A stretch of 19,378 bases of DNA, taken from the IMG/VR virus record IMGVR_UViG_3300029337_000248, positions 1 through 19,378 of that record, one strand, 5' to 3'. The stretch is from a virus. Taxonomy: Duplodnaviria > Heunggongvirae > Uroviricota > Caudoviricetes. Below are positions 935-11,348 of this stretch, one piece after another. Within the stretch, counting starts at the first letter, position 1. Every line of letters starts with the position of its first letter. The position numbers and the translations under genes are program-made. The notes beneath the pieces are model-generated. The model made no database searches and had not been told where the DNA came from. It was given only the letters and a program-made list of their open reading frames with translations.

Positions 935-2620
935 GTGAATATAAACGTCGCCGAATTGTTAAATGGGAATTACATTCTGTTATTATTTGTGGTCCTCGCG
1001 CTTGGGCTATGTCTCGGAAAGTTACGACTTGGTTCGATCCAACTGGGTAATTCCATTGGCGTTTTAGTCGTATCGCTGTTATTAGGCCAACAACATTTCA
1101 GCATTAACACCGATGCGCTTAATCTTGGCTTTATGCTGTTTATTTTCTGTGTTGGGGTTGAAGCCGGACCGAACTTTTTTTCCATTTTTTTTCGCGATGG
1201 GAAAAATTACCTAATGTTAGCACTGGTGATGGTTGGCAGTGCGCTGGTGATCGCCTTAGGGTTAGGTAAGCTGTTTGGCTGGGATATTGGCCTGACGGCC
1301 GGTATGTTAGCAGGCTCTATGACGTCGACACCGGTTCTGGTCGGTGCTGGCGATACACTGCGTCATTCCGGCATGGAAAGCAGGCAGCTCTCACTGGCAC
1401 TGGATAATCTGAGCCTCGGGTATGCCTTAACCTATTTAATCGGTCTGGTGAGTTTGATTGTTGGTGCGCGTTACTTGCCGAAATTGCAGCATCAGGACTT
1501 ACAGACCAGCGCCCAGCAAATCGCCCGCGAACGTGGCCTGGACACTGATGCCAACCGTAAGGTTTATTTACCGGTGATCCGCGCCTATCGCGTCGGCCCG
1601 GAGCTGGTGGCCTGGACCGACGGCAAAAATCTGCGTGAACTGGGTATTTATCGACAAACCGGCTGCTACATTGAACGTATTCGACGTAACGGGATTCTGG
1701 CAAATCCAGACGGTGATGCCGTGCTACAAATGGGCGATGAAATAGCGTTGGTAGGCTATCCCGACGCCCATGCCCGACTCGATCCCAGCTTCCGTAACGG
1801 TAAAGAAGTTTTCGATCGTGACCTTCTCGACATGCGTATCGTCACTGAAGAAGTGGTCGTTAAAAACCATAACGCTGTAGGTAAACGTCTCGCACAACTG
1901 AAGTTGACCGATCACGGTTGCTTCCTTAACCGCGTCATTCGTAGCCAGATTGAGATGCCGATAGATGACAACGTCGTGCTTAACAAAGGTGACGTTTTAC
2001 AAGTCAGCGGTGATGCCCGTCGCGTAAAAACCATCGCCGATCGCATCGGCTTTATCTCGATTCACAGCCAGGTCACTGACCTGCTGGCATTTTGCGCCTT
2101 CTTTGTTATTGGGCTGATGATCGGGATGATCACCTTCCAGTTCAGCACATTCAGTTTCGGCATGGGGAACGCTGCCGGGTTGTTATTCGCCGGAATTATG
2201 CTGGGCTTTATGCGTGCTAACCACCCGACCTTCGGTTACATTCCGCAGGGTGCATTAAGCATGGTGAAAGAGTTCGGCTTGATGGTGTTTATGGCAGGCG
2301 TTGGTCTGAGCGCCGGTAGCGGTATTAATAACGGCCTGGGCGCGATTGGCGGTCAGATGTTGATTGCCGGATTGATTGTCAGTCTGGTGCCCGTGGTTAT
2401 CTGTTTCTTGTTCGGTGCTTATGTATTGCGAATGAACCGCGCGCTGTTGTTCGGCGCAATGATGGGCGCACGTACCTGCGCGCCGGCAATGGAGATCATC
2501 AGTGATACAGCTCGCAGTAACATCCCGGCGCTGGGCTATGCGGGCACCTATGCAATCGCCAACGTCCTGCTGACGCTGGCAGGGACAATCATCGTCATGG
2601 TATGGCCAGGATTAGGATAA
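935..2620 (+). CDS. ybjL: Putative transporter YbjL (AAE-family membrane protein with central soluble domains)
   Basis: 561 aa ORF with N- and C-terminal hydrophobic halves flanking a soluble central region; sequence ([20 protein letters not shown]...) and synteny with ybjM-grxA recognised from memory. Confidence 0.9.
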
Positions 2621-2726
2621 AACTGAAGTTGCCCTGAAAATGAAATTTTTTTGCACAACCGCAGAACTTTTCCGCAGGGCATCAGTCTTAATTAGTGCCA
2701 CTGCTTTTCTTTGATGTCCCCATTTT

Positions 2727-2772
2727 GTGGAGCCCATCAACCCCGCCATTTCGGTTCAAGGTTGATGGGTTT
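2727..2772 (+). terminator. Intrinsic terminator downstream of ybjL; probably the last host-type feature before the prophage end
   Basis: Perfect 10-bp stem CCCATCAACC / GGTTGATGGG with a structured loop, followed by TTTTTTGTT on the + strand; no U-run in the minus-strand reading. Confidence 0.6.
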
Positions 2773-2855
2773 TTTGTTGCCTGAAATTTATACCTTTTAA
2801 AATCATGATGTTAGAAGCACTGCTTTTTAACGATGGCGACAAAATGGCGGCAGCG

Positions 2856-3074
2856 TCAAAGAGAGAGCGCCACCTGTCCTGATTTCATTGGATGCGGCTG
2901 AACCGGATTTGACTCTTTTGGCGTTGCAATCGAACGAACAAAAGTTTCATGGGTAACAAAAGTATGGCTGCAGTTAATGTTCTGGCACTGGTTGTAACGC
3001 TCTTTGGTCAATGAAGATACCTGAAAACTGCTGCGAGTATGGGCGGCACTTCCACACAGTGGGCAAATCATCAT
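2856..3074 (-). CDS. ogr: Ogr/B-family zinc-finger late-gene transcription activator
   Basis: ~72 aa product from the internal Met (MMICPLCGSAAH...ERYNQCQNINCSHTF) carrying the CPLC...CQN.NC zinc-finger pattern of P2 Ogr / 186 B; immediately downstream of D as in P2. GGGGAG lies ~10 nt upstream of the chosen ATG. Confidence 0.85.
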   Translation of the reverse strand: MMICPLCGSAAHTRSSFQVSSLTKERYNQCQNINCSHTFVTHETFVRSIATPKESNPVQPHPMKSGQVALSL

Positions 3075-3164
3075 TTTTCGAGTTCTCCCCATTTTTGCTA
3101 AATTCACAATAATGATACCGTATTATTCCATTTTGCAAACTTAAAAGTTCTCCATTGCGAAGAA

Positions 3165-4265
3165 TCATTCCATTTCGAAATCATCAATCCTCACTTCAAG
3201 CTCCAGACTGGTCGTAAAACCGTTATCCGGGCTGACGGTATGTGTCAGAGTCGTAATGGTCCATTCCGCATCATCTATCGGCTGTTTAAAACCACTGACT
3301 TTCACTGGCATTTCCGTGTAGAGATCTGCCCGACCTTCCGCCAGTTGTAGCGAGAATGACGCAACGCCGCGTTGCAGGCGTTCCCACTGCATTTTCGCCG
3401 CTCGTTCGGCGTTGCTCCGGTTGGCATAAGTGCGATTAAGTACCAGCACGTTTTCATCCGTACCCACCAGGTAATCGCCCTGCTTCGCTTCCGGCTCTTT
3501 CGTCTGCTTCTTAGTCCTGCGCTTACGCTTCACCGTGGTGCTTTCTTTCTTCGAGGGTTCGCGAGTATGCAACCAGCTGGCAATTACGCCCGTGTAAGCT
3601 CCGCGATCTGCCAGGGTAAAGCGGTGACTGTCGCCGTCCTTACGTGTGATAGTGATCACCGGTAGTGGTTTACCGCTGGCGCTTTTACCCTGTCCCTGTC
3701 GGATGAATAACAGATTGCCATTTTTCACCGACGCAATAGCACCGTACTGGCGCGCCAGCCGCATCAGAAAACTGCCGTCACTCTCATTGGTCTGGTCTAA
3801 ATGTTCCACGGTTTTATCTGACAGGTCTTTACCCAATGCCATCTTCAGTTTGTGCCGCGCAGCTATTTCCTTCACCACTTCCCCAACGGTGGTCTTGTGC
3901 CACGACTTTTCACGGCGGGTATTCAGCGTTTCACGAAAATCAGCACTTCGCGCCCGGATAGTCAGGCGGTCCGGTGCGCCAGTGTGTTCAATCTCGTCCA
4001 CCGTGAATGTCCCTTTCGGGAAAAGCGGCTGCCCCTTCCAGCCCAGCGCCAGCGTAATGACCGCACCACGGCGCGGCAGCACGATTTTTCCGTCGGCGTC
4101 GTCCAGCTCCAGATCAAGCTGGTCCGCTTCAAAGCCCCGATTGTCCGTCAGCGTCAAACTCATCAGGCGGTTATCCAGCACAGTGGTGATATCCCTGCCC
4201 TCAATACTGATGCTGAATGCGGGAGTTTTGTTGCCTTTGTTAAGCAGTTCAGAGCTGAAATTCAC
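3165..4265 (-). CDS. D: Phage late control / tail protein D (P2 gpD family)
   Basis: 366 aa ORF, the last gene of the T-U-D order, read on the minus strand; size and sequence character fit P2 gpD (recalled ~387 aa). Confidence 0.85.
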   Translation of the reverse strand: MNFSSELLNKGNKTPAFSISIEGRDITTVLDNRLMSLTLTDNRGFEADQLDLELDDADGKIVLPRRGAVITLALGWKGQPLFPKGTFTVDEIEHTGAPDRLTIRARSADFRETLNTRREKSWHKTTVGEVVKEIAARHKLKMALGKDLSDKTVEHLDQTNESDGSFLMRLARQYGAIASVKNGNLLFIRQGQGKSASGKPLPVITITRKDGDSHRFTLADRGAYTGVIASWLHTREPSKKESTTVKRKRRTKKQTKEPEAKQGDYLVGTDENVLVLNRTYANRSNAERAAKMQWERLQRGVASFSLQLAEGRADLYTEMPVKVSGFKQPIDDAEWTITTLTHTVSPDNGFTTSLELEVRIDDFEME

Positions 4266-4747
4266 GACAGCAGCCCTCCCACCGTTTTACTGATATCGCT
4301 TAAAGCAGACGTTGCCATGTCCTGCAGATTATTCAGTTGCGCACTGAGATCACCGAACATATCGGACAGGGATTCATCCACCCGTTTGAGCGACAGGGTG
4401 AACTCAATCCGGCGCGGCATACCGTCGCGGAAAAACTCCGTTTTAGTCTGATTCAGTCCCTCAATCACATACATGCCATAAATCGTGCCGCTGCCTTCAA
4501 TCAGGGGCCATGCTTTCCCCTGTTCTGCCATCTGCTCCAGCGCCAGCAGCGACAGCCTGCCACCTGTTATCTCCGGCATAAGAACACCGGAAAGCGTCAG
4601 CATGTCGTTGTCCGGTCCCAGAAACTGCGTGGACGGACGTCGGTTTACCCGGCTGTTTGCCGCATGTCGCCAGTTGCGTTGATACTGCAGCTCCTGATAC
4701 GGCACGGTGCGCAGCATAAACACGTACAATCCCAGCACCATCATCAT
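4262..4747 (-). CDS. U: Phage tail protein U (P2 gpU family)
   Basis: 161 aa ORF whose stop overlaps the D start by 4 nt (ATGA), between the T fragment and D; size matches P2 gpU (~160 aa). Confidence 0.85.
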   Translation of the reverse strand: MMMVLGLYVFMLRTVPYQELQYQRNWRHAANSRVNRRPSTQFLGPDNDMLTLSGVLMPEITGGRLSLLALEQMAEQGKAWPLIEGSGTIYGMYVIEGLNQTKTEFFRDGMPRRIEFTLSLKRVDESLSDMFGDLSAQLNNLQDMATSALSDISKTVGGLLS

Positions 4748-5448
4748 GCGTCGTATCCCCCCTGATCGCTGTAGTTACTCCTGGCTTTTGCCTTCAACCT
4801 GCGTTCACGTTCATCAAGCTGGCGGGCCACCTCCCGCGCAATATCCTGCGCACTTTGTCCTGGCTGCGTCTGGATGATGATCTGCGTCGGTGCCTCAATC
4901 CTGTAAACGGGCGGCACAGTGGCTGCGCGACTCACAATTGCTTCTCCACCTTTCGCGGGAAGTGCCAAAGGGTGCAACGGTGGAAGCTCTGCTGGTGCGG
5001 CAGCAACGCCCATCATTCCGGCAACAACGGCAGCCAGTGCAGCTGTATTTCTCCGGCTAGTCACATTTGCCGGGCCGTTAACAATTTCCGGCCCGTTTTC
5101 ACCGACGATGCCAAACTGCCCGCGCGGGATATACCCGCCGCTGTCATACATCCCCGCAAAGCCATATCCCCATGATGGAAAACCACCCGATGGCATCATC
5201 ACTTTACCGTCTGCATTCACCGTCGCAGGTTGCTGACGCGTCACGCTTTCCGGCAGTTTTGCCTTTGCGGCCTCTTTACTGACAATGCCGAGCTTCTCCA
5301 GCAACCAGGAAACGCCGGATTTCAGGGAGTCCAGCGGATGCATGACCATATTCAGCCCTTCCGCCAGTGCCTCCCCGAATCTCCGCCCCATTGCCGCTGC
5401 ACTCTGCAGTTCGGCAGAGGTCGACTTAACGGGCGTCAACCGTAACAA
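4744..5448 (-). pseudogene. T: Tail tape-measure protein T, C-terminal fragment only (5' part deleted)
   Basis: 234 aa ORF directly upstream of U in the T-U-D order; P2 gpT is ~815 aa from memory, and the reading frame runs straight into the terminase fragment on the opposite strand with no E/E' or other tail genes upstream. Confidence 0.7.
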
Positions 5449-6865
5449 AGGCCCGCGCCGTCAGCCGGAAAAGAACGTTTTCACCGATGAACAGATTGAG
5501 AAGCTGGAAGAAATCTTCCATTCCTCCATGTTCAACTACCAGCGCCACTGGTGGGAAGCCGGAAAAACCAACCGCATCCGCAACCTGCTGAAGTCACGCC
5601 AGATCGGCGCGACCTTCTATTTTGCCCGTGAAGCCCTGATTGACGCCCTGCTAACCGGGCGTAACCAGATTTTCCTTTCCGCCAGCAAGGCTCAGGCCCA
5701 CGTCTTTAAGCAGTACATCATCGACTTCGCCAAAGAAGTGGAGGTGGAGCTGAAAGGCGATCCGATGGTGCTTCCTAACGGGGCCACGCTTTACTTCCTC
5801 GGCACCAATGCCCGCACTGCCCAGAGTTATCACGGCAACCTGTATCTGGATGAATATTTCTGGATACCGAAATTCCAGGAGCTGCGCAAAGTGGCTTCCG
5901 GTATGGCTATTCACAAGAAATGGCGACAAACCTATTTTTCCACGCCATCCAGCCTGACTCATAGTGCTTATCCGTTCTGGTCCGGTGCGCTGTTCAACCG
6001 TGGGCGCAACAAAGCCGATAAGGTGGACATCGACCTGTCCCACAGCAATCTGGCCCCCGGCCAGCTGTGCGCCGACGGGCAATACCGCCAGATAGTCACC
6101 GTGGAAGATGCGGTGCGCGGCGGCTGTAACCTGTTCGACCTTGACCAGTTGCGCATGGAGTACAGCCCGGACGAATACCAGAACCTGCTGATGTGCGAGT
6201 TTGTGGACGATCTCGCGTCCGTGTTTCCGCTCAGCGAGCTGCAGGCGTGCATGGTGGACAGTTGGGAAGTCTGGACCGACTTTCATGCTCTGGCCCTGCG
6301 CCCATTTGGCTGGCGCGAAGTGTGGATCGGTTATGACCCGGCAAAAGGTACGCAGAACGGCGACAGCGCCGGATGCGTGGTGGTGGCACCGCCAGCCGTG
6401 CCAGGCGGTAAGTTTCGCATTCTCGAGCGTCACCAGTGGCGCGGGATGGACTTCCGTGCCCAGGCGGACGCAATCAAAAAACTGACCGAGCAGTACAACG
6501 TGACCTACATCGGCATCGACTCAACCGGCGTTGGTCACGGGGTTTACGAGAACGTGAAAGCGTTCTTTCCTGCCGTCCGGGAGTTTGTCTACAACCCCAA
6601 CGTTAAAAACGCCCTGGTACTCAAGGCCTACGACATTATCAGCCACCGCCGTCTGGAGTTTGACGCCGGACACACCGACATAGCGCAGTCCTTTATGGCA
6701 ATCCGTCGCTCCACCACCGCCAGTGGCAACCGCCCGACCTATGAAGCCAGCCGCAGCGAAGAAGCCAGCCACGCCGATCTGGCATGGGCAACGATGCACG
6801 CACTGTTTAACGAACCGCTGCAGGGCGAATCCGCCAATACCAGCAATATTGTGGAGATTTTTTGA
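5449..6865 (+). pseudogene. P: Terminase large (ATPase/nuclease) subunit P, N-terminally truncated
   Basis: ORF 5285-6865 translates to a terminase-like protein (C-terminal nuclease-type segment ...YIGIDSTGVGHG...) and is followed by portal Q with a 4-nt overlap. Its first ~55 codons overlap the T fragment on the other strand, so the homologous part starts near 5450-5475, well short of the ~590 aa I recall for P2 gpP. Boundary is approximate. Confidence 0.7.
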
Positions 6866-7890
6866 TGGGAAAGAGTAAGAAAAACCGCGCAGCGGCGATG
6901 AATCAGATCCAGCATAAAAGCCAGACTTCAGCCGAAGCATTCAGCTTCGGCGATCCCGTTCCTGTTCTGGACCGTCGCGAACTGCTGGACTATGTGGAAT
7001 GCGTACAGATGGACCGCTGGTATGAGCCGCCTGTGAGTTTCGACGGCCTGGCGCGAACATTCCGCGCCGCCGTACACCACAGCTCACCGATTGCAGTAAA
7101 GTGCAACATTCTGACCAGCACCTATATCCCTCACCCACTGCTCAGCCAGCAGGCTTTTTCACGTTTTGTGCAGGACTATCTGGTATTTGGTAACGCCTAC
7201 CTGGAGAAACGCACGAACCGCTTCGGTGAAGTTATCGCCCTTGAACCTGCGCTGGCAAAATACACCCGACGCGGGTTAGACCTGGATACCTACTGGTTTG
7301 TGCAATACGGCATGACTACGCAGCCGTATCAGTTCACGAAAGGCAGCATCTTTCATCTGATGGAACCGGATATCAACCAGGAGATCTACGGCCTGCCCGG
7401 TTATCTTTCTGCCATTCCGTCAGCCCTGCTCAACGAGTCCGCCACGTTGTTCCGCCGTAAGTATTACATCAACGGCAGCCATGCAGGCTTCATCATGTAC
7501 ATGACCGATGCCGCGCAGAATCAGGAGGATGTGAACAACCTCCGCAACGCGATGAAAAGCGCCAAAGGTCCAGGCAACTTCCGCAACCTGTTTATGTACT
7601 CACCTAACGGCAAAAAAGACGGGCTTCAGATCATCCCATTGTCAGAAGTCGCGGCGAAGGATGAATTTCTTAACATCAAGAACGTGAGTCGGGATGACAT
7701 GATGGCAGCGCACCGCGTGCCGCCGCAAATGATGGGGATTATGCCGAATAATGTTGGGGGGTTTGGGGATGTGGAGAAAGCAAGTAAAGTGTTTGTACGA
7801 AACGAACTTATACCATTACAAAAACGCTTAGGAGAGATAAATGAATGGCTTGATAAAAAAATAATAGAATTTGAAATATATTCATTCTGA
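6862..7890 (+). CDS. Q: Portal (capsid vertex) protein Q
   Basis: 342 aa ORF immediately downstream of P with overlapping stop/start, matching the P-then-Q order and ~344 aa size of P2 gpQ. Confidence 0.85.
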   Translation: MMGKSKKNRAAAMNQIQHKSQTSAEAFSFGDPVPVLDRRELLDYVECVQMDRWYEPPVSFDGLARTFRAAVHHSSPIAVKCNILTSTYIPHPLLSQQAFSRFVQDYLVFGNAYLEKRTNRFGEVIALEPALAKYTRRGLDLDTYWFVQYGMTTQPYQFTKGSIFHLMEPDINQEIYGLPGYLSAIPSALLNESATLFRRKYYINGSHAGFIMYMTDAAQNQEDVNNLRNAMKSAKGPGNFRNLFMYSPNGKKDGLQIIPLSEVAAKDEFLNIKNVSRDDMMAAHRVPPQMMGIMPNNVGGFGDVEKASKVFVRNELIPLQKRLGEINEWLDKKIIEFEIYSF

Positions 7891-7947
7891 TACATTTACA
7901 TAACTTAATAGGACATCCATCGCTCAACACATAATAAGAAAAAAACT

Positions 7948-7965
7948 ACGGCACTACCGTGCCGT
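7948..7965 (-). terminator. Intrinsic terminator for the three-gene cargo operon (possibly bidirectional with Q)
   Basis: Stem ACGGCAC / GTGCCGT with loop TACC; in the minus-strand reading the hairpin is followed by AGTTTTTTTCTTATT, and it lies 10 nt past the stop of the 7975-8472 gene. Confidence 0.6.
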
Positions 7966-7974
7966 AACAAATTA

Positions 7975-8472
7975 TCACTTTAAGAATTTTTTCTGATAAG
8001 ACTCATCAATTAGAGATTTAATTATTTTCGCCCTTTTTGACACTAATACACTAATTCTTGTCCTTTGACTTTTATCATACTCCTGTGCTTTTTCAATATT
8101 AGATGTAGCATCTTTGAATAAATCAGCAATCAAAGGTTTATAGTCACCTTCGATATTAATGCGTTGTTTTAGATGATTCAACCACCGCTCGGTCTCCGCA
8201 AGAAGTGCTGTTATCTCATTTTGAAATGACATTGCATCAATTTCTTTTGAATCTCCCGGTATCCAAAACTTTCTTGATGCAGATTCAATTTCCTTTAAAT
8301 TATCTGAAACATTTTTTACAATTGCCCATGTTTCACTCCTCTTTTGCAACGCACGGGAGTTTCTATAAACAAAAACCCAACCAATCAAGGCTGTTAGAAT
8401 TGCAATCACACCTGAACTAGCAAGGTATTGTAATAACCGCAGATAAACCGGAAGTTCATCCATGAACATCAC
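7975..8472 (-). CDS. Single-pass membrane protein of unknown function (candidate effector), third gene of the cargo operon
   Basis: 165 aa ORF; one predicted transmembrane helix near the N-terminus (LLQYLASSGVIAILTALIGWVFVY), then a charged, likely helical domain; start overlaps the stop of the upstream gene by 4 nt; AT-rich codon usage. Confidence 0.75.
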   Translation of the reverse strand: MMFMDELPVYLRLLQYLASSGVIAILTALIGWVFVYRNSRALQKRSETWAIVKNVSDNLKEIESASRKFWIPGDSKEIDAMSFQNEITALLAETERWLNHLKQRINIEGDYKPLIADLFKDATSNIEKAQEYDKSQRTRISVLVSKRAKIIKSLIDESYQKKFLK

Positions 8473-8789
8473 TCCTTTTTAGCATCAGAAATATATCCCC
8501 ATATACTATCCTTGAGGAAATCCAAATCAGTAAATATTTTTAATTTTTTCCTAATTATAGCTTTATCTATATTATTTGTTCTATAAAGTCCACCAAACGC
8601 CTCTTCCAAGAATGAAGAACCATAACCCATAGCACCATCAAGGTACACGTGCACCTCATCATAATCTTGGATGGCTTTCAAAAGATACTTTTCACGGAAA
8701 CGTTGTCCATTATCAGGACCATCCTCATCATAGCGGCCATAGGGAACATCTGAAAAATCTTCAGCAACATGTATCTCTTTGATTTTCAT
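8469..8789 (-). CDS. Small acidic protein, candidate STAS-like (anti-sigma-antagonist-like / DUF4325-like) partner, second gene of the cargo operon
   Basis: 106 aa ORF translationally coupled (4-nt overlaps) to both neighbours. Size and a ...LDGAMGYGSSFLEEAF... segment with adjacent serines resemble the phosphorylatable region of STAS/SpoIIAA-like proteins. The family call is by eye and tentative. Confidence 0.7.
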   Translation of the reverse strand: MKIKEIHVAEDFSDVPYGRYDEDGPDNGQRFREKYLLKAIQDYDEVHVYLDGAMGYGSSFLEEAFGGLYRTNNIDKAIIRKKLKIFTDLDFLKDSIWGYISDAKKE

Positions 8790-9853
8790 TCAGCACCTCT
8801 CAAACTTACATTCCATTGAATAAGGGTTCCACCTATGGAGTATGGCAGATCAAATTTATCTTCAACATTATTTTCAGCATCATAAGAATATCGTCCCATT
8901 CCACTAAAAATATGTAACTGCCCCTCAGGGTTATCTACAACATACCTTTTCATATCAGGTAATCCTTTACCATGCTTCTGACTATTCATTCTTGTCTCAC
9001 CATACTGTACAGCCGCGAATATTTTATCAGAATCCGTCTTAGGATTAAATATCTGAGCGATAAATGTGAAAAAGTCTTTTTTAACCAATGTAACTGGGAT
9101 ACCTTCTCCCATATCATACACCATCAAAAATAGTTGTTCTTCGACTTTGTGTGCCAATATCCACCATCTTTTACCAATGTCCTCAATAAATTCAGAGAAC
9201 TGTTCTTCATTTGAATACGCATGTAGACCAACATTGCTAATAGATTCAGTTAAGGCTGCATATAATTTCACACCATCCGAAGCGGAAATCTTACCTTCAT
9301 AAATGGTATCTTTTATATAACGTAGAATATTTTTAATTTTTTGTCTTGCTTCGGCACTTTCATGATCATCTCTAGTTTTGCCTGCAACAGCGGAAACAAT
9401 TTCCATTGAATTAAGCTTATCTGCAGCTATACGCTGAAACCCTGTAATCCCCCAAATACCACATATTTTAAACCAGTTATTTGCCCTGGATGAACCGCAC
9501 GTAGTAATAGAAATTATATTTTTATCTTTTGTTTGCCTTTGTAAAAAGTCAATATGTGCATACAATACGATTACTGCACATGCTTTCAGAGATTTTGTAT
9601 TTCTGAAATCTATTAAAATTTTCTCACCATCATTGATGTAATCTCTGATTAAAGTGATAAACTCTATAAATAGTTTGTAATTTTTAGTATTAAATAAGTC
9701 CAATGACGCAGGCGCGGGTATTCTCACACGAGAGAATACCCGCATGGGCTGTAGCATCCGTCTTCCACCAGAAAGCTTTCTTGACTCCCGCTTCGCAATC
9801 TTCCTTGCTCTGATCAAAGAATGTTCAATTTGTTCTTCAGTTAGCCGCTTCAT
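8786..9853 (-). CDS. GHKL-type (histidine-kinase-like / anti-sigma-kinase-like) ATPase with an unassigned ~190 aa N-terminal domain, first gene of the cargo operon
   Basis: C-terminal half carries Bergerat-fold motifs in order: N-box TESISNVGLHAY (E-x3-N-x3-H-[GA]-Y as in SpoIIAB/RsbW), G1 box YDMGEGIP (DxGxG), G2 box HGKGLPD, G3 GGTLIQW. Start placed at the internal Met (MKRLTEEQ...) because GAGGAAAGG precedes it; the longer ORF reaches 9898. Confidence 0.75.
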   Translation of the reverse strand: MKRLTEEQIEHSLIRARKIAKRESRKLSGGRRMLQPMRVFSRVRIPAPASLDLFNTKNYKLFIEFITLIRDYINDGEKILIDFRNTKSLKACAVIVLYAHIDFLQRQTKDKNIISITTCGSSRANNWFKICGIWGITGFQRIAADKLNSMEIVSAVAGKTRDDHESAEARQKIKNILRYIKDTIYEGKISASDGVKLYAALTESISNVGLHAYSNEEQFSEFIEDIGKRWWILAHKVEEQLFLMVYDMGEGIPVTLVKKDFFTFIAQIFNPKTDSDKIFAAVQYGETRMNSQKHGKGLPDMKRYVVDNPEGQLHIFSGMGRYSYDAENNVEDKFDLPYSIGGTLIQWNVSLRGAE

Positions 9854-10000
9854 ATCCTTTCCTCGATAGTTGTTGAAGCTTATCAGTTCACGCAACAACT
9901 ACAAACATCTACCTGCTATCTTAAAGCAACAATTTGAAAGAACATTGAAAATCATAGTATCTGTTTGTAAACAAACGACTGTTTCTATACCTTGCGCGCG

Positions 10001-10019
10001 CTCGTATCCCCGCCACGCC
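10001..10019 (-). other. cos-like cohesive-end site
   Basis: Minus-strand reading GGCGTGGCGGGGATACGAG; the first 12 nt match the cohesive-end sequence I recall for 186 (GGCGTGGCGGGGAAAGCAT) and P2 (GGCGAGGCGGGGAAAGCAC). Located in the A-to-Q interval where cos is expected. Confidence 0.6.
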
Positions 10020-10050
10020 TGCCCGCTTTATGTAGTAGTTTTCATGCACC

Positions 10051-10151
10051 TGCATGACATGAGCAAAAGCCCGCCAGTTCTGGCATGTCTTAGCCAAACC
10101 GATCCTCAAACGATCATGCGAACCCATGCAGCATAGACATGCATGACATGA
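10051..10151. repeat. Direct repeats of TGCATGACATGA (10051-10062 and 10140-10151) flanking cos, within a CATG-rich cluster
   Basis: Two exact 12-bp copies 89 bp apart, read directly from the sequence; TGGCATGTC also occurs twice (10081-10089 and 10252-10260). Confidence 0.7.
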
Positions 10152-10387: not shown

Positions 10388-10492
10388 AGCTCTTTTGAGC
10401 TAAAATCAAGTTTCAACATGAGGGTCTGTGCAGGCTTTCTCATCCCGCTAATTTATACAGCACACCTATATGGCTATGAGTTTGTCATGCCC

Positions 10493-10524
10493 GCTAATCC
10501 TGTTAGGATTAGCCTTGTTTTTTT
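10493..10524 (+). terminator. Terminator-like hairpin immediately upstream of the lipoprotein gene
   Basis: Perfect 9-bp stem GCTAATCCT / AGGATTAGC with loop GTT, followed by CTTGTTTTTTT; ends 17 nt before the ATG at 10542. Confidence 0.5.
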
Positions 10525-10541
10525 ACGATTGGGATAGGGAT

Positions 10542-11348
10542 ATGAAGAAATTAACTGGCGTAATTGCTTTTGCTCTGCTGCTTACTGCTTGTGACAAACC
10601 GAAGATCGATGCATCAAGCGATCAGTCGATGAAAGAGTCCATTCAAAAAGTAAGAGAGTCCTTACCTGCAGATAAAAAAGCTCAGTTTGATGATGCAGTT
10701 AAAGTCGTTGCCTTTAGCCAAATCAACATGAGAGAGCTAATGCAGGCTGGAACGTCTTCTGGGGACGTCTACGAAACAAAAATTAAGTCAGCGTTGGAAG
10801 GTAAAACTGGTGATGAGGTTATAAATTACGCACAAACTATTCGCCTTGAGCGTGAGAAGAGAGAGAAAGAACAGGCTCTGCAAGAAATAAAAGAACTGGA
10901 AGCCAAACAAACCTCTGCAACACAGGCTGCGGAAAAAATGAAAGCCTTCAAGGTCGAACGTTCCCGTTTTTATTTCCAGAAAGAGGATTACGGCAATGAT
11001 CAGCCAATTCTGGATATTAGCGTTGAAAACGGAACAGACAAAGCGGTTGCCAGAGTATTCTTCAAAGGAGTTATTGCCAGCCCAGGAAGAAGCGTCCCTT
11101 GGTTCTCTGACGTCTTCAACTATAAAATTTCTGGAGGTCTGGAACCAGGTGAGAAAGCCAACTGGAAATTAGCCCCTAATAGATACTCTGATTGGGGAAA
11201 ACTTAAAGTTCCGGCTGATGCTATATTTACCGTCACAGTCATTGGCCTTGAAGACGCAGATGGGAAATCGATCTATGGTGACGCCGAGTTTTCAGAACGC
11301 GATGCTGACAGACTGAATCAACTTAGAGATAAGTACCTTTCTAAATAA
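10542..11348 (+). CDS. Lipoprotein of unknown function (~268 aa), candidate superinfection-exclusion or lysogenic-conversion protein
   Basis: Start chosen at MKKLTGVIAFALLLTAC with a lipobox (LLTAC); the track ORF starts upstream at 10470 but that part covers the terminator hairpin. Central lysine/glutamate-rich predicted coiled coil, then a C-terminal globular region. Confidence 0.75.
   Translation: MKKLTGVIAFALLLTACDKPKIDASSDQSMKESIQKVRESLPADKKAQFDDAVKVVAFSQINMRELMQAGTSSGDVYETKIKSALEGKTGDEVINYAQTIRLEREKREKEQALQEIKELEAKQTSATQAAEKMKAFKVERSRFYFQKEDYGNDQPILDISVENGTDKAVARVFFKGVIASPGRSVPWFSDVFNYKISGGLEPGEKANWKLAPNRYSDWGKLKVPADAIFTVTVIGLEDADGKSIYGDAEFSERDADRLNQLRDKYLSK

What the first reader, a model, noticed from the sequence alone, without database searches (positions are those of the whole stretch)
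7975..8472. Single-pass membrane protein as putative effector
The third operon gene encodes one N-terminal transmembrane helix followed by a ~130 aa charged helical domain. Small membrane proteins are common effectors of abortive-infection systems, and this would supply the toxic output missing from the two soluble components.
Basis: inference. Interest (0 to 1): 0.5.

Follow-up and report, generated by a model that had tools for sequence, protein, structure and literature searches.

The report
Membrane protein of kinase–STAS phage-defence operon
The ORF is a real, conserved single-pass membrane protein that always follows a serine-kinase-like gene and a STAS-like gene, in a cassette related to the VapKSC phage-defence system, where it sits in the slot that VapKSC gives to its toxin; nobody has tested it.

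Summary
Window 7975..8463(-) encodes a 162-aa protein; the start is probably the ATG at 8463, not the GTG at 8472. It has one N-terminal transmembrane helix and a roughly 130-aa charged, all-helical cytoplasmic four-helix bundle (AF2 pLDDT 88).

It is the last gene of a tightly coupled, low-GC, terminator-bounded operon:
- A: STAS-like domain plus GHKL kinase-like domain, 8786..9853.
- B: DUF4325 STAS-like protein, 8469..8789.
- C: this gene.

The operon lies between cos and the portal gene of a P2-like prophage remnant.

The A-B-C triad recurs in 80 loci from many bacterial phyla, in a P4-like satellite hotspot, and beside the repressor of Marinobacter phage AS1.

A is a remote homologue of VapK (hhalign 93%). 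B and VapS both belong to Pfam DUF4325. B Ser58 aligns with the VapS phospho-acceptor Ser48.

C therefore sits where VapKSC has its PIN toxin. This supports the effector reading by analogy, but toxicity is untested. C matches no Pfam, PADLOC or NCBIfam family and only generic helical-bundle folds.

Rousset 2022 catalogued the cassette (P2 hotspot system #61) without testing it.

Verdict: a new variant of a known kind, with the effector interpretation partly supported.

The parts
7975..8463 (-). Gene C: 162-aa single-pass membrane protein, the finding itself.
   Evidence: ORF. RefSeq start. Orthologue N-termini. AF2 model at pLDDT 88. 57 close and 104 remote homologues.
8365..8433 (-). Transmembrane helix of C, about residues 11-33, with a conserved small-residue stripe (A15, G18, A21, A25, G28) and an invariant GW at the cytoplasmic end.
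   Evidence: Kyte-Doolittle maximum 2.19. Column counts of 23-24 out of 24. G28, W29, N35 and E44 are at least 90% conserved, and W67 is invariant, in the 51-sequence remote alignment.
7978..8364 (-). Cytoplasmic juxtamembrane helix plus four-helix bundle of C, residues 34-162. The most conserved stretch is YKNSRALQKRSETWAIVKN.SD.LKEIE.
8472..8477 (-). AAGGAG Shine-Dalgarno for C, inside the 3' end of gene B, 8 nt before the ATG at 8463.
   Evidence: Read directly from the sequence.
8469..8789 (-). Gene B: 106-aa DUF4325 STAS-like protein, the putative phospho-switch or antitoxin.
   Evidence: Pfam DUF4325, E=3.5e-12. VapS is also DUF4325, E=2.7e-17. hhalign against VapS, E=1e-3.
8613..8618 (-). 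Codons for Ser58-Ser59 of B within the invariant G-S-S-F-L-(E/D)-E-A-F motif. Ser58 aligns with the VapS phospho-acceptor Ser48.
   Evidence: Invariant in alignment A4. Residue mapping from the hhalign alignment. Role of VapS S48.
8786..9853 (-). Gene A: 355-aa protein made of a basic N-terminal helix, a STAS-like alpha/beta domain (about residues 37-157) and a GHKL (Bergerat-fold) kinase-like domain (about residues 163-350).
   Evidence: AF2 model. Foldseek GHKL hits, with SpoIIAB at TMt 0.69. HATPase_c_2 in 25 of 38 family members. Profile against PDB: SpoIIAB and RsbW at about 7e-4. hhalign against VapK: 93%, E=2.7e-7, across both domains.
9215..9247 (-). N-box of the A kinase domain (E203...N207...H211-A-Y213).
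   Evidence: E203, N207, H211 and Y213 are invariant, and A212 at least 90% conserved, in the 38-sequence alignment. Aligned to the SpoIIAB motif sEAvtNaiiHgY.
9095..9115 (-). G1-box of A (D247-x-G249-x-G-I-P253).
   Evidence: D247 and G249 are invariant; I252 and P253 are at least 90% conserved.
8960..8971 (-). G2-box of A (G295-K-G297-L).
   Evidence: G295 and G297 are invariant.
7945..7968 (-). Intrinsic terminator closing the operon, between C and the convergent portal gene.
   Evidence: 10-bp stem with 5 GC pairs, followed by a T-run.
9854..10000 (-). Upstream region of the operon between cos and gene A. The promoter is presumed to lie here. It contains the short inverted repeat GTTTGT-TT-ACAAAC at 9963-9976.
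   Evidence: Sequence. The consensus scan found no strong sigma-70 match here, so the promoter is inferred, not shown.
10001..10019 (-). cos-like 19-mer GGCGTGGCGGGGATACGAG, inside a ~150-bp block shared with P2-like phages. It places the operon between cos and portal gene Q.
   Evidence: Sequence. The block 9992-10143 is conserved in 43 phage records. The resemblance to the P2/186 cohesive end is from my own knowledge and from the P2 sequences printed.

Best explanation
Gene C is the membrane-embedded output of a three-gene kinase / STAS / membrane-protein immune cassette carried as prophage cargo.

Proposed mechanism, by analogy with VapKSC:
1. In uninfected lysogens the STAS-like protein B binds the conserved cytoplasmic juxtamembrane and four-helix-bundle surface of C and keeps it inert.
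2. Infection produces a cue that is sensed by A, through its N-terminal basic helix and STAS-like domain.
3. The anti-sigma-factor-type GHKL kinase domain of A then phosphorylates B on Ser58.
4. Phospho-B lets go of C.
5. C self-associates through the conserved small-residue face of its single TM helix and compromises the inner membrane, by depolarisation or leak.
6. This stops phage production in the infected cell.

Shown: the anatomy, the conservation of the triad, the homology of A and B to VapK and VapS, and the hotspot locations.

Inferred: the kinase activity, the B-C binding, the trigger, the toxicity of C and the membrane mechanism. An alternative wiring, in which A sequesters C and unphosphorylated B releases it as in RsbW/RsbV, would also leave C as the output.
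For: 1. Anatomy. C has one TM helix plus a cytoplasmic four-helix bundle. A/B/C are translationally coupled and closed by a terminator.
2. Obligate triad.
- The cassette is retained in orthologues at 47-83% identity and in distant relatives.
- In 80 loci found with the B profile across many phyla, 73 of 73 extractable upstream ORFs are A-family.
- 79 of the 80 loci have a downstream ORF with a median length of 160 aa. Of these, 56 match the C profile, and 67 have an N-terminal hydrophobic segment with KD>=1.3.
3. A is an anti-sigma-factor-type kinase-like protein. It has invariant N, G1 and G2 boxes, HATPase_c_2 in 25 of 38 members, SpoIIAB and RsbW as best PDB profile hits and a GHKL fold.
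4. Link to a validated system.
- The A profile against VapK gives hhalign 93%, E=2.7e-7, over 243 columns spanning both domains.
- VapS and B are both Pfam DUF4325.
- B Ser58, which is invariant, aligns with VapS Ser48.
- In VapKSC the third gene is the toxin, S is the antitoxin, and S48 phosphomimicry releases the toxin.
- PIN.4 VapC genes are known to be coupled to DUF4325 genes.
5. Defence-type locations.
- P2 cos-Q hotspot.
- P4 psu-int hotspot.
- Listed as P2 hotspot system #61 by Rousset 2022.
- Beside cI/cro in Marinobacter phage AS1 and in L017.
- Neighbours of the 57 distant loci scanned include PARIS-, AbiL-, HEC-01- and Septu-like genes and integrases.
6. All three genes are under purifying selection.
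7. The TM helix carries a conserved A15/G18/A21/A25/G28 stripe typical of helix-helix packing.
Against: - There is no direct evidence that C is toxic or that the cassette protects against any phage. Rousset 2022 did not test it.
- C has no similarity to any known membrane effector, holin or pore former. Fold searches give only generic four-helix bundles, a fold equally typical of sensor and scaffold domains.
- The bundle helices are amphipathic, with no buried hydrophobic hairpin. Any pore would have to be built from a single TM helix per subunit.
- B-VapS similarity is weak outside the Pfam match (hhalign probability 22%).
- A and B have no sequence-level match to any PDB chain, whether or not CapS and VapS are in that copy.
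- Comparing A's N-domain with the B family was not significant.
- By my own reading of the alignment, the aromatic residue proposed for ssDNA sensing in VapK is not obviously conserved in A. The numbering could not be reconciled, so the trigger may differ.
- The window protein A itself scores below the Pfam HATPase_c cutoff.
Confidence: 0.5

Rival explanations
1. C is not the toxin. It is a membrane tether, scaffold or sensor that localises the kinase-STAS pair at the inner membrane, for example to detect phage DNA entry or envelope perturbation. The real output would then be phosphorylation of phage or host targets by A, or an effect of released B.
For: - C is replaced by an unrelated protein only in one or two apparently degenerate loci of the 80 sampled. 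It also evolves faster than A and B, as sensors and adaptors often do.
- C has no toxin-like feature.
Against: - The extracytoplasmic N-terminal tail is only about 10 residues, so there is nothing to sense outside the membrane.
- In the homologous VapKSC system the kinase is the sensor and the third gene is the effector.
- Without C the cassette has no recognisable output domain.
Confidence: 0.2
2. C is a non-lethal superinfection-exclusion or lysis-interfering membrane protein. It would block DNA injection or holin function of incoming phages, with the kinase-STAS pair tuning it, rather than acting as a suicide effector.
For: - Prophage-encoded small inner-membrane proteins at lysogeny-expressed moron positions are classic exclusion factors (own knowledge).
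- The triad sits next to the repressor in phage AS1 and in L017, and at the cos-Q hotspot.
- Weak PHROG and BFVD matches point to an uncharacterised 205-aa protein in the int-cI region of the P2-like phage HP1.
Against: - Exclusion proteins normally act alone and are not accompanied by an ATP-dependent phospho-switch.
- Most of the 80 loci are chromosomal in diverse phyla and are not obviously prophage-borne.
- The homology to a toxin-antitoxin-like system argues for conditional activation.
Confidence: 0.1
3. The triad is not an anti-phage system at all. It is a general stress-responsive partner-switching or addiction module, for example one that responds to DNA damage or energy stress, or stabilises the mobile element, and that merely rides on mobile elements.
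For: - The authors of the VapKSC paper themselves note that the line between immune and stress pathways is blurred.
- Many of the 80 loci have ordinary metabolic neighbours.
- No phage phenotype is known.
Against: - The same cassette occupies three independent, experimentally established defence hotspots or moron sites.
- It is absent from core genomes: 20 of 5426 complete E. coli genomes carry it.
- It has foreign GC content.
- VapKSC gives about 2-log protection.
Confidence: 0.12

Closest known systems
VapKSC (VapK kinase, VapS STAS antitoxin, VapC PIN toxin; Chambers et al., EMBO J 2026, PMC13373217)
   Same: - Three-gene operon in the order kinase, STAS, third gene.
- A is a remote homologue of VapK across both the STAS-like and the GHKL domains (hhalign 93%).
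- B and VapS are both Pfam DUF4325.
- The conserved Ser is at the equivalent position.
- Both are found on mobile elements or near defence genes.
   Different: - The third gene is a single-pass membrane four-helix-bundle protein, not a PIN nuclease.
- A carries an extra basic N-terminal helix.
- B lacks the extended C-terminal inhibitory helix described for VapS.
- There are no experimental data, and the trigger is unknown.
Partner-switching modules: SpoIIAB/SpoIIAA and RsbW/RsbV (anti-sigma factor kinase plus STAS antagonist)
   Same: - The kinase domain of the A family is of the HATPase_c_2 type, and its best PDB profile hits are SpoIIAB and RsbW.
- B is a small STAS-like partner with a serine at the N-terminus of a helix.
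   Different: - There is no sigma factor and no PP2C phosphatase.
- The kinase has an extra N-terminal STAS-like domain.
- The third partner is a membrane protein.
- The cassette is mobile-element cargo rather than a core regulatory locus.
CapK-CapS regulators of immune operons (same paper)
   Same: A GHKL kinase with a STAS domain, paired with a STAS-domain substrate.
   Different: - CapK has an N-terminal HTH and CapS a C-terminal wHTH that binds DNA. B is 106 aa with no DNA-binding domain.
- Nothing but C and a terminator follows B, so this is not a regulator of a downstream operon.
Two-component abortive systems with a membrane effector, e.g. lambda RexA/RexB; also the TM effectors of CBASS, Pycsar and Thoeris II, and the '1TM'/'3TM' partners in the P2/P4 hotspot systems of Rousset 2022
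   Same: A prophage-encoded, lysogen-expressed cassette in which a cytoplasmic sensor controls a small inner-membrane protein. It occupies the same hotspots.
   Different: - There is no sequence or profile similarity: no PADLOC hits at E<=1.
- C has one TM helix, whereas RexB has four.
- Control would be through a kinase/STAS phospho-switch rather than a nucleotide signal or direct binding.
Rousset 2022 P2-hotspot system #61 'DUF4325' (68 occurrences) and P4-hotspot system #69 'HATPase_c | DUF4325'
   Same: This is the same cassette. WP_052928646 and WP_130723475 are listed, and protein 1 of #61 differs from A at one residue.
   Different: It is only a catalogue entry. The system is not among those cloned and tested. 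Entry #61 mixes two divergent subtypes. It is not the validated '3HP' system.

Membership tests
VapKSC kinase-STAS-toxin system | Kinase with a CapK-like STAS domain followed by a GHKL domain, homologous to VapK. | tested here: met
   hhalign of the A-family profile against VapK: probability 93.3%, E=2.7e-7, 243 columns covering both domains. GHKL fold and invariant N, G1 and G2 boxes.
VapKSC kinase-STAS-toxin system | Small STAS (DUF4325) protein with an absolutely conserved Ser/Thr at the VapS S48 position. | tested here: met
   B matches DUF4325 at E=3.5e-12 and VapS at E=2.7e-17. Ser58 is invariant and aligns with S48. The B-VapS hhalign probability is only 22%.
VapKSC kinase-STAS-toxin system | The third gene is a VapC-like PIN nuclease toxin. 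| tested here: not met
   C has no PIN or any other Pfam domain. It is a TM helix plus a four-helix bundle.
VapKSC kinase-STAS-toxin system | S neutralises the toxin, phosphorylation releases it, and the system protects against phage. | not testable with these tools
   This needs toxicity and rescue assays, Phos-tag and plaque assays. AF-multimer was not available.
Partner-switching module (RsbW/RsbV, SpoIIAB/SpoIIAA) | HATPase_c_2-type serine kinase / anti-sigma factor. | tested here: met
   25 of 38 A-family members hit PF13581, best E=2e-7. SpoIIAB 6.5e-4 and RsbW 7.6e-4 in the PDB profile search. The window protein alone gives only a weak HATPase_c match at E=0.002.
Partner-switching module (RsbW/RsbV, SpoIIAB/SpoIIAA) | A sigma-factor target and a PP2C phosphatase in the module. 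| tested here: not met
   Neither is present in the operon or among the window genes scanned. The third gene is a membrane protein.
CapK-CapS transcriptional regulators | An HTH on the kinase, a wHTH on the STAS protein, and a downstream immune operon. | tested here: not met
   B is 106 aa and consists of DUF4325 only. The AF2 model of A starts with a single basic helix, not an HTH. A terminator follows C.
Known membrane effectors of defence systems and holins (RexB, KwaA, 2TM/Cap15-type, PycTM, holins) | A profile match to a described effector family. | tested here: not met
   The window protein has no PADLOC hit at E<=1. Only scattered single hits occur among 51 relatives. No Pfam family is shared by more than 2 of the 51 and 39 relatives scanned; the hits are isolated ones such as Vpu, DUF2730 and Phage_holin_2_1. 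NCBIfam gives nothing.
P2/P4 hotspot cargo (Rousset 2022) | Located between gpA and gpQ around cos of a P2-like phage, or between psu and int of a P4-like satellite. | tested here: met
   The window order is portal, C-B-A, cos-like site, then the replication gene A. The same holds in Serratia and Enterobacter prophages. A Citrobacter copy lies between psu and int. The cassette is listed in Tables S1 and S5 of that paper.
Type II toxin-antitoxin pair (B-C) | The antitoxin gene precedes and is translationally coupled to the toxin gene, and the two form a protein-protein complex. | tested here: inconclusive
   Gene order and coupling fit: the B-to-C spacing is mostly -29 to +13 nt in the 80 loci. 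Complex formation and toxicity could not be tested.

The most novel reading that the evidence does not exclude
The triad is a widespread, so far unnamed bacterial immune system. A ligand-activated anti-sigma-factor-type kinase phosphorylates a DUF4325 STAS antitoxin, which unleashes a new family of single-pass, viroporin-like membrane effectors (TM helix plus four-helix bundle). Together with VapKSC this would define a modular 'kinase-STAS switch plus interchangeable toxin' class of defence.
Probability: 0.4. Interest if true: 0.65.

Novelty: new variant of a known kind. Interest (0 to 1): 0.55.

Why it matters
If C is the effector, the kinase-STAS phospho-switch just described for VapKSC is a general control module that can drive very different toxins: an RNase in VapKSC, a membrane protein here. 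C would then found a new, Pfam-less family of membrane effectors. That family is present in at least 251 loci among the 185,579 species-representative genomes scanned, in a P4-like satellite, in P2-like prophages and in a cultured marine phage.

It would also give function to a cassette that has sat unannotated in the P2 hotspot catalogue since 2022 and that PADLOC (2023) and NCBIfam (2026) do not recognise.

Practically, it is a compact 1.9-kb, three-gene system from E. coli that can be tested directly in E. coli.

Tried and rejected
1. Identity with the validated '3HP' system of Rousset 2022. Rejected: those proteins (about 343, 357 and 227 aa) are unrelated.
2. Membership of any PADLOC system. 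All three proteins gave zero hits at E<=1. The mad2/mad3/mad8, AriA and PtuA hits among neighbours of distant loci are generic ATPase and methylase similarities. All-vs-all BLAST found no recurrent neighbour.
3. Sequence search of A, B and C against the PDB, both single sequences and profiles. Only SpoIIAB and RsbW came up, for the A profile. Nothing came up for B or C.
4. hhalign of A's N-terminal domain against the B family, to show it is STAS. Not significant, probability 0.4%. The STAS-like assignment rests on AF2 topology and on the VapK alignment.
6. Pfam Vpu hits in 2 of 51 remote relatives. I judged these compositional (a TM helix followed by charged helices), not homology.
7. The idea that near-identical A-B pairs carry alternative C alleles, suggested by Table S5B #61. 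Rejected: the 214-aa protein belongs to a separate, divergent A'-B'-C' cassette, and all 20 complete E. coli genomes that carry this A-B also carry this C.
8. Literature searches for DUF4325, STAS/GHKL and partner-switching in phage defence. They found only the Rousset catalogue, the PIN.4 note and the CapK/VapKSC paper. One search on MADS was uninformative.
9. The antisense ORF 8205..8420(+) has no support and was not pursued.

Full report
OBSERVATION

RefSeq annotates the identical gene in 99.9%-identical E. coli prophages as a 162-aa hypothetical protein starting at the ATG at 8463 (WP_130723475). That start has an AAGGAG Shine-Dalgarno 8 nt upstream and matches the MD/ME N-termini of orthologues. 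The GTG start therefore probably adds three residues.

Kyte-Doolittle analysis shows a single hydrophobic segment, with a maximum of 2.19, at about residues 11-33. The basic stretch RNSRALQKR follows it, which implies an N-out / C-in topology with only about 10 residues outside the membrane. The remaining ~129 residues are 34% charged.

AlphaFold2 on a 24-sequence alignment gives mean pLDDT 88.1. The TM helix runs on into a long cytoplasmic helix (19-67). Helices 77-99, 109-128 and 131-160 follow, forming a four-helix bundle.

The gene is under purifying selection: against the Enterobacter orthologue pN is 0.107 and pS 0.741.

OPERON AND GENOMIC SETTING

C is the last gene of a minus-strand operon.
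- A: 8786..9853, 355 aa.
- B: 8469..8789, 106 aa. It overlaps A by 4 nt.
- C: its ATG lies 5 nt after the B stop.
- A 10-bp-stem terminator at 7945-7968 closes the operon.

The operon has about 35% GC in a roughly 54% GC background. It lies between the portal gene (6862..7890, convergent) and a cos-like 19-mer at 10001-10019. Beyond cos come a DUF6694 lipoprotein gene and the P2-type replication gene A. This is the cos-proximal variable region of P2-like phages, which Rousset et al. 2022 showed to be a reservoir of anti-phage systems.

THE PARTNERS

B is a DUF4325 'STAS-like' protein (Pfam E=3.5e-12).

A scores only weakly against HATPase_c by itself (E=0.002). Family-level evidence is much stronger:
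- The Bergerat N-box (E203...N207...H211), the G1-box (D247-x-G249) and the G2-box (G295-x-G297) are invariant across 38 sequences that share only about 25% identity.
- 25 of 38 members hit HATPase_c_2, the RsbW/SpoIIAB family.
- The family profile's best PDB matches are SpoIIAB and RsbW.
- The AF2 model (pLDDT 79.6) has a C-terminal GHKL fold, with SpoIIAB at TMt 0.69.
- The model also shows a basic N-terminal helix and a beta-beta-alpha-beta-alpha-beta-alpha domain of STAS-like topology.

IS THE TRIAD A UNIT?

Yes.
- Orthologous cassettes in Enterobacter, Klebsiella and Serratia P2-like prophages keep all three genes. A Citrobacter copy sits between psu and int of a P4-like satellite, the second Rousset hotspot.
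- Distant A homologues (26-34% identity) and distant C homologues (23-24% identity) still have the same three-gene layout.
- A scan of GTDB species genomes with a B-family pattern gave 251 confirmed loci. I examined the best 80. They come from several classes of Proteobacteria and from Planctomycetota, Verrucomicrobiota, Nitrospinota, Bdellovibrionota, Bacteroidota and a Saccharimonadales MAG.
  - In 73 of 73 loci where an upstream ORF could be extracted, it matches the A profile.
  - 79 of the 80 loci have a downstream ORF (median 160 aa), usually overlapping B or lying within a few bases of it. Of these, 56 match the C-family profile at E<1e-3.
  - 67 of the 79 have an N-terminal hydrophobic segment with KD>=1.3.
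- Marinobacter phage AS1 carries the triad (AS1_41/40/39) next to its repressor and cro genes.
- A second, divergent subtype (382 + 137 + 214 aa) occupies the same P2 position in other E. coli.
- The window's own allele is present in 20 of 5426 complete E. coli genomes, always intact.

WHAT IS KNOWN

Rousset 2022 lists exactly this cassette as P2-hotspot system #61 'DUF4325' (68 occurrences). The entry names WP_052928646 and WP_130723475, and notes '1 TM in protein 3'. The system is absent from the tables of cloned and tested systems. It is not the validated 'hp+hp+hp' system.

PADLOC-DB 2.0 gives no hit for A, B or C, and NCBIfam gives none. PHROGs places all three in families of unknown function.

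The informative comparison is VapKSC (Chambers et al. 2026). In that system:
- a STAS-GHKL kinase, VapK, phosphorylates a STAS antitoxin, VapS, on Ser48;
- this releases the PIN toxin VapC;
- the system gives about 2-log protection against one phage;
- it is probably triggered by ssDNA.

I took the sequences from that paper's appendix and compared them with the window proteins.
- VapS is itself a DUF4325 protein (E=2.7e-17).
- The B profile aligns to VapS with B Ser58 opposite Ser48. Ser58 is invariant in the B family.
- The A-family profile aligns to VapK at 93% probability (E=2.7e-7) over 243 columns covering both the N-terminal and the GHKL domains.
- An older survey had already noted a VapC clade 'transcriptionally coupled to DUF4325'.

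The window operon is therefore a sister of VapKSC in which a membrane protein replaces the PIN toxin.

WHAT C ITSELF TELLS US

It tells us little about mechanism.
- The C family has 104 cluster representatives at E<=1e-3 in 1.84 billion proteins. It has no Pfam or PADLOC family and no PDB relative by sequence.
- BFVD returns an unnamed 159-aa viral protein (TM-score 0.6) and an uncharacterised int-cI ORF of phage HP1.
- Conservation is highest at the membrane-cytoplasm boundary (G28, W29, N35, E44) and at W67.
- The TM helix carries a conserved small-residue stripe, A15-G18-A21-A25-G28. This suggests helix-helix association.
- No bundle helix is hydrophobic enough to be a latent membrane-insertion hairpin.

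INTERPRETATION

The most economical model copies VapKSC. B holds C inactive. A senses infection and phosphorylates B Ser58. C is freed, oligomerises through its TM helix and damages the membrane. I give this about 0.5.

Its strongest supports are:
- the homology of A and B to a validated kinase-antitoxin pair;
- the absence of any other output domain;
- the antitoxin-before-toxin gene order with translational coupling;
- the hotspot locations.

Its weaknesses are:
- no toxicity data;
- no similarity of C to any effector;
- a fold as typical of scaffolds and sensors as of effectors.

Rival explanations:
- C is a tether or sensor and the kinase is the true output (0.2).
- C is a non-lethal exclusion factor (0.1).
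- The module is a stress or addiction module rather than a defence system (0.12).

A partner-switch wiring, in which A sequesters C and unphosphorylated B releases it, would still make C the output.

It is right on anatomy and plausible on function, but unproven.

NOVELTY

This is a new variant of a known kind. The kinase-STAS switch is known from VapKSC and CapKS, published in 2026, and from classical partner switching. The membrane third component is an uncharacterised family. The cassette itself has been catalogued but, in the literature available here, never tested.

LIMITS

- PADLOC is the 2023 release.
- The paper library holds open-access papers only.
- TM prediction used hydropathy only.
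- No multimer prediction could be run.

Noticed in passing
window 935..6865: The P2-like prophage in this window is a deletion remnant. A host Asp-Al_Ex/TrkA_C permease gene (935..2620) and the RybB sRNA (2700..2778, Rfam 105 bits) are followed directly by gpD (3165..4265), gpU (4262..4747) and a tape-measure fragment (4744..5448). That fragment overlaps a 5'-truncated terminase gene (5285..6865). The capsid, lysis and most tail genes are missing. 828 E. coli genomes cover at least 80% of window 2600-6000.
   Followed up: partly
window 10470..11348 (+): A DUF6694 family lipoprotein gene (292 aa, signal/lipobox-like N-terminus) lies on the other side of cos. It is a second piece of hotspot cargo of unknown function.
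   Followed up: no
L100:3419-5645 (E. coli GCA_012290495.1): A second, divergent subtype of the same triad occupies the same cos-Q position: 382 aa A' (A profile 4.7e-82), 137 aa B' (B profile 1.2e-31) and 214 aa C'. C' has a 65-aa N-terminal extension before its TM helix. Rousset's Table S5B entry #61 mixes the two subtypes: proteins 1 and 2 are of the window type, and protein 3 is the 214-aa one.
   Followed up: partly
L101:2389-4315 (Marinobacter phage AS1, MK088078): A cultured temperate phage carries the triad (AS1_41/40/39; A 6.6e-92, B 3.7e-34, C 3.3e-16) immediately beside its repressor-like and cro genes. This echoes the position of rexAB in lambda. A similar placement next to a CI-type repressor is seen in L017.
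   Followed up: partly
window 8469..8789 (gene B) vs phrog_5816: B matches only positions 341-440 of a 441-position PHROG profile. Some phage proteins may therefore carry the DUF4325 domain as the C-terminus of a ~440-aa protein, possibly a kinase-STAS fusion.
   Followed up: no
window 9963..9976: A short inverted repeat, GTTTGT-TT-ACAAAC, lies in the 150 nt between the cos-like site and the start of gene A. It could be an operator. The consensus scan found no strong sigma-70 promoter in this interval.
   Followed up: no
window 8786..9853, residues 1-35 of A: A starts with a strongly basic helix (MKRLTEEQIEHSLIRARKIAKRESRKLSGGRR). Its basic character is kept across the family (consensus R..R.R..R). 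VapK lacks it and CapK has an HTH in its place. It might bind nucleic acid or membrane.
   Followed up: no
window 8205..8420 (+): A 71-aa antisense ORF lies inside gene C. It has no annotation or homology support and is most likely a chance ORF in AT-rich DNA.
   Followed up: no
L019-L098 flanks: The large ORFs flanking the distant triads in the 57 loci scanned include PARIS AriA-like, AbiLi, HEC-01A (E=1e-130), PtuA/GajA-like ATPases, type II methylases, 6 phage integrases and S24 repressors. No single neighbour recurs. This suggests a frequent but not universal island or mobile-element context. Enrichment against background was not measured.
   Followed up: partly
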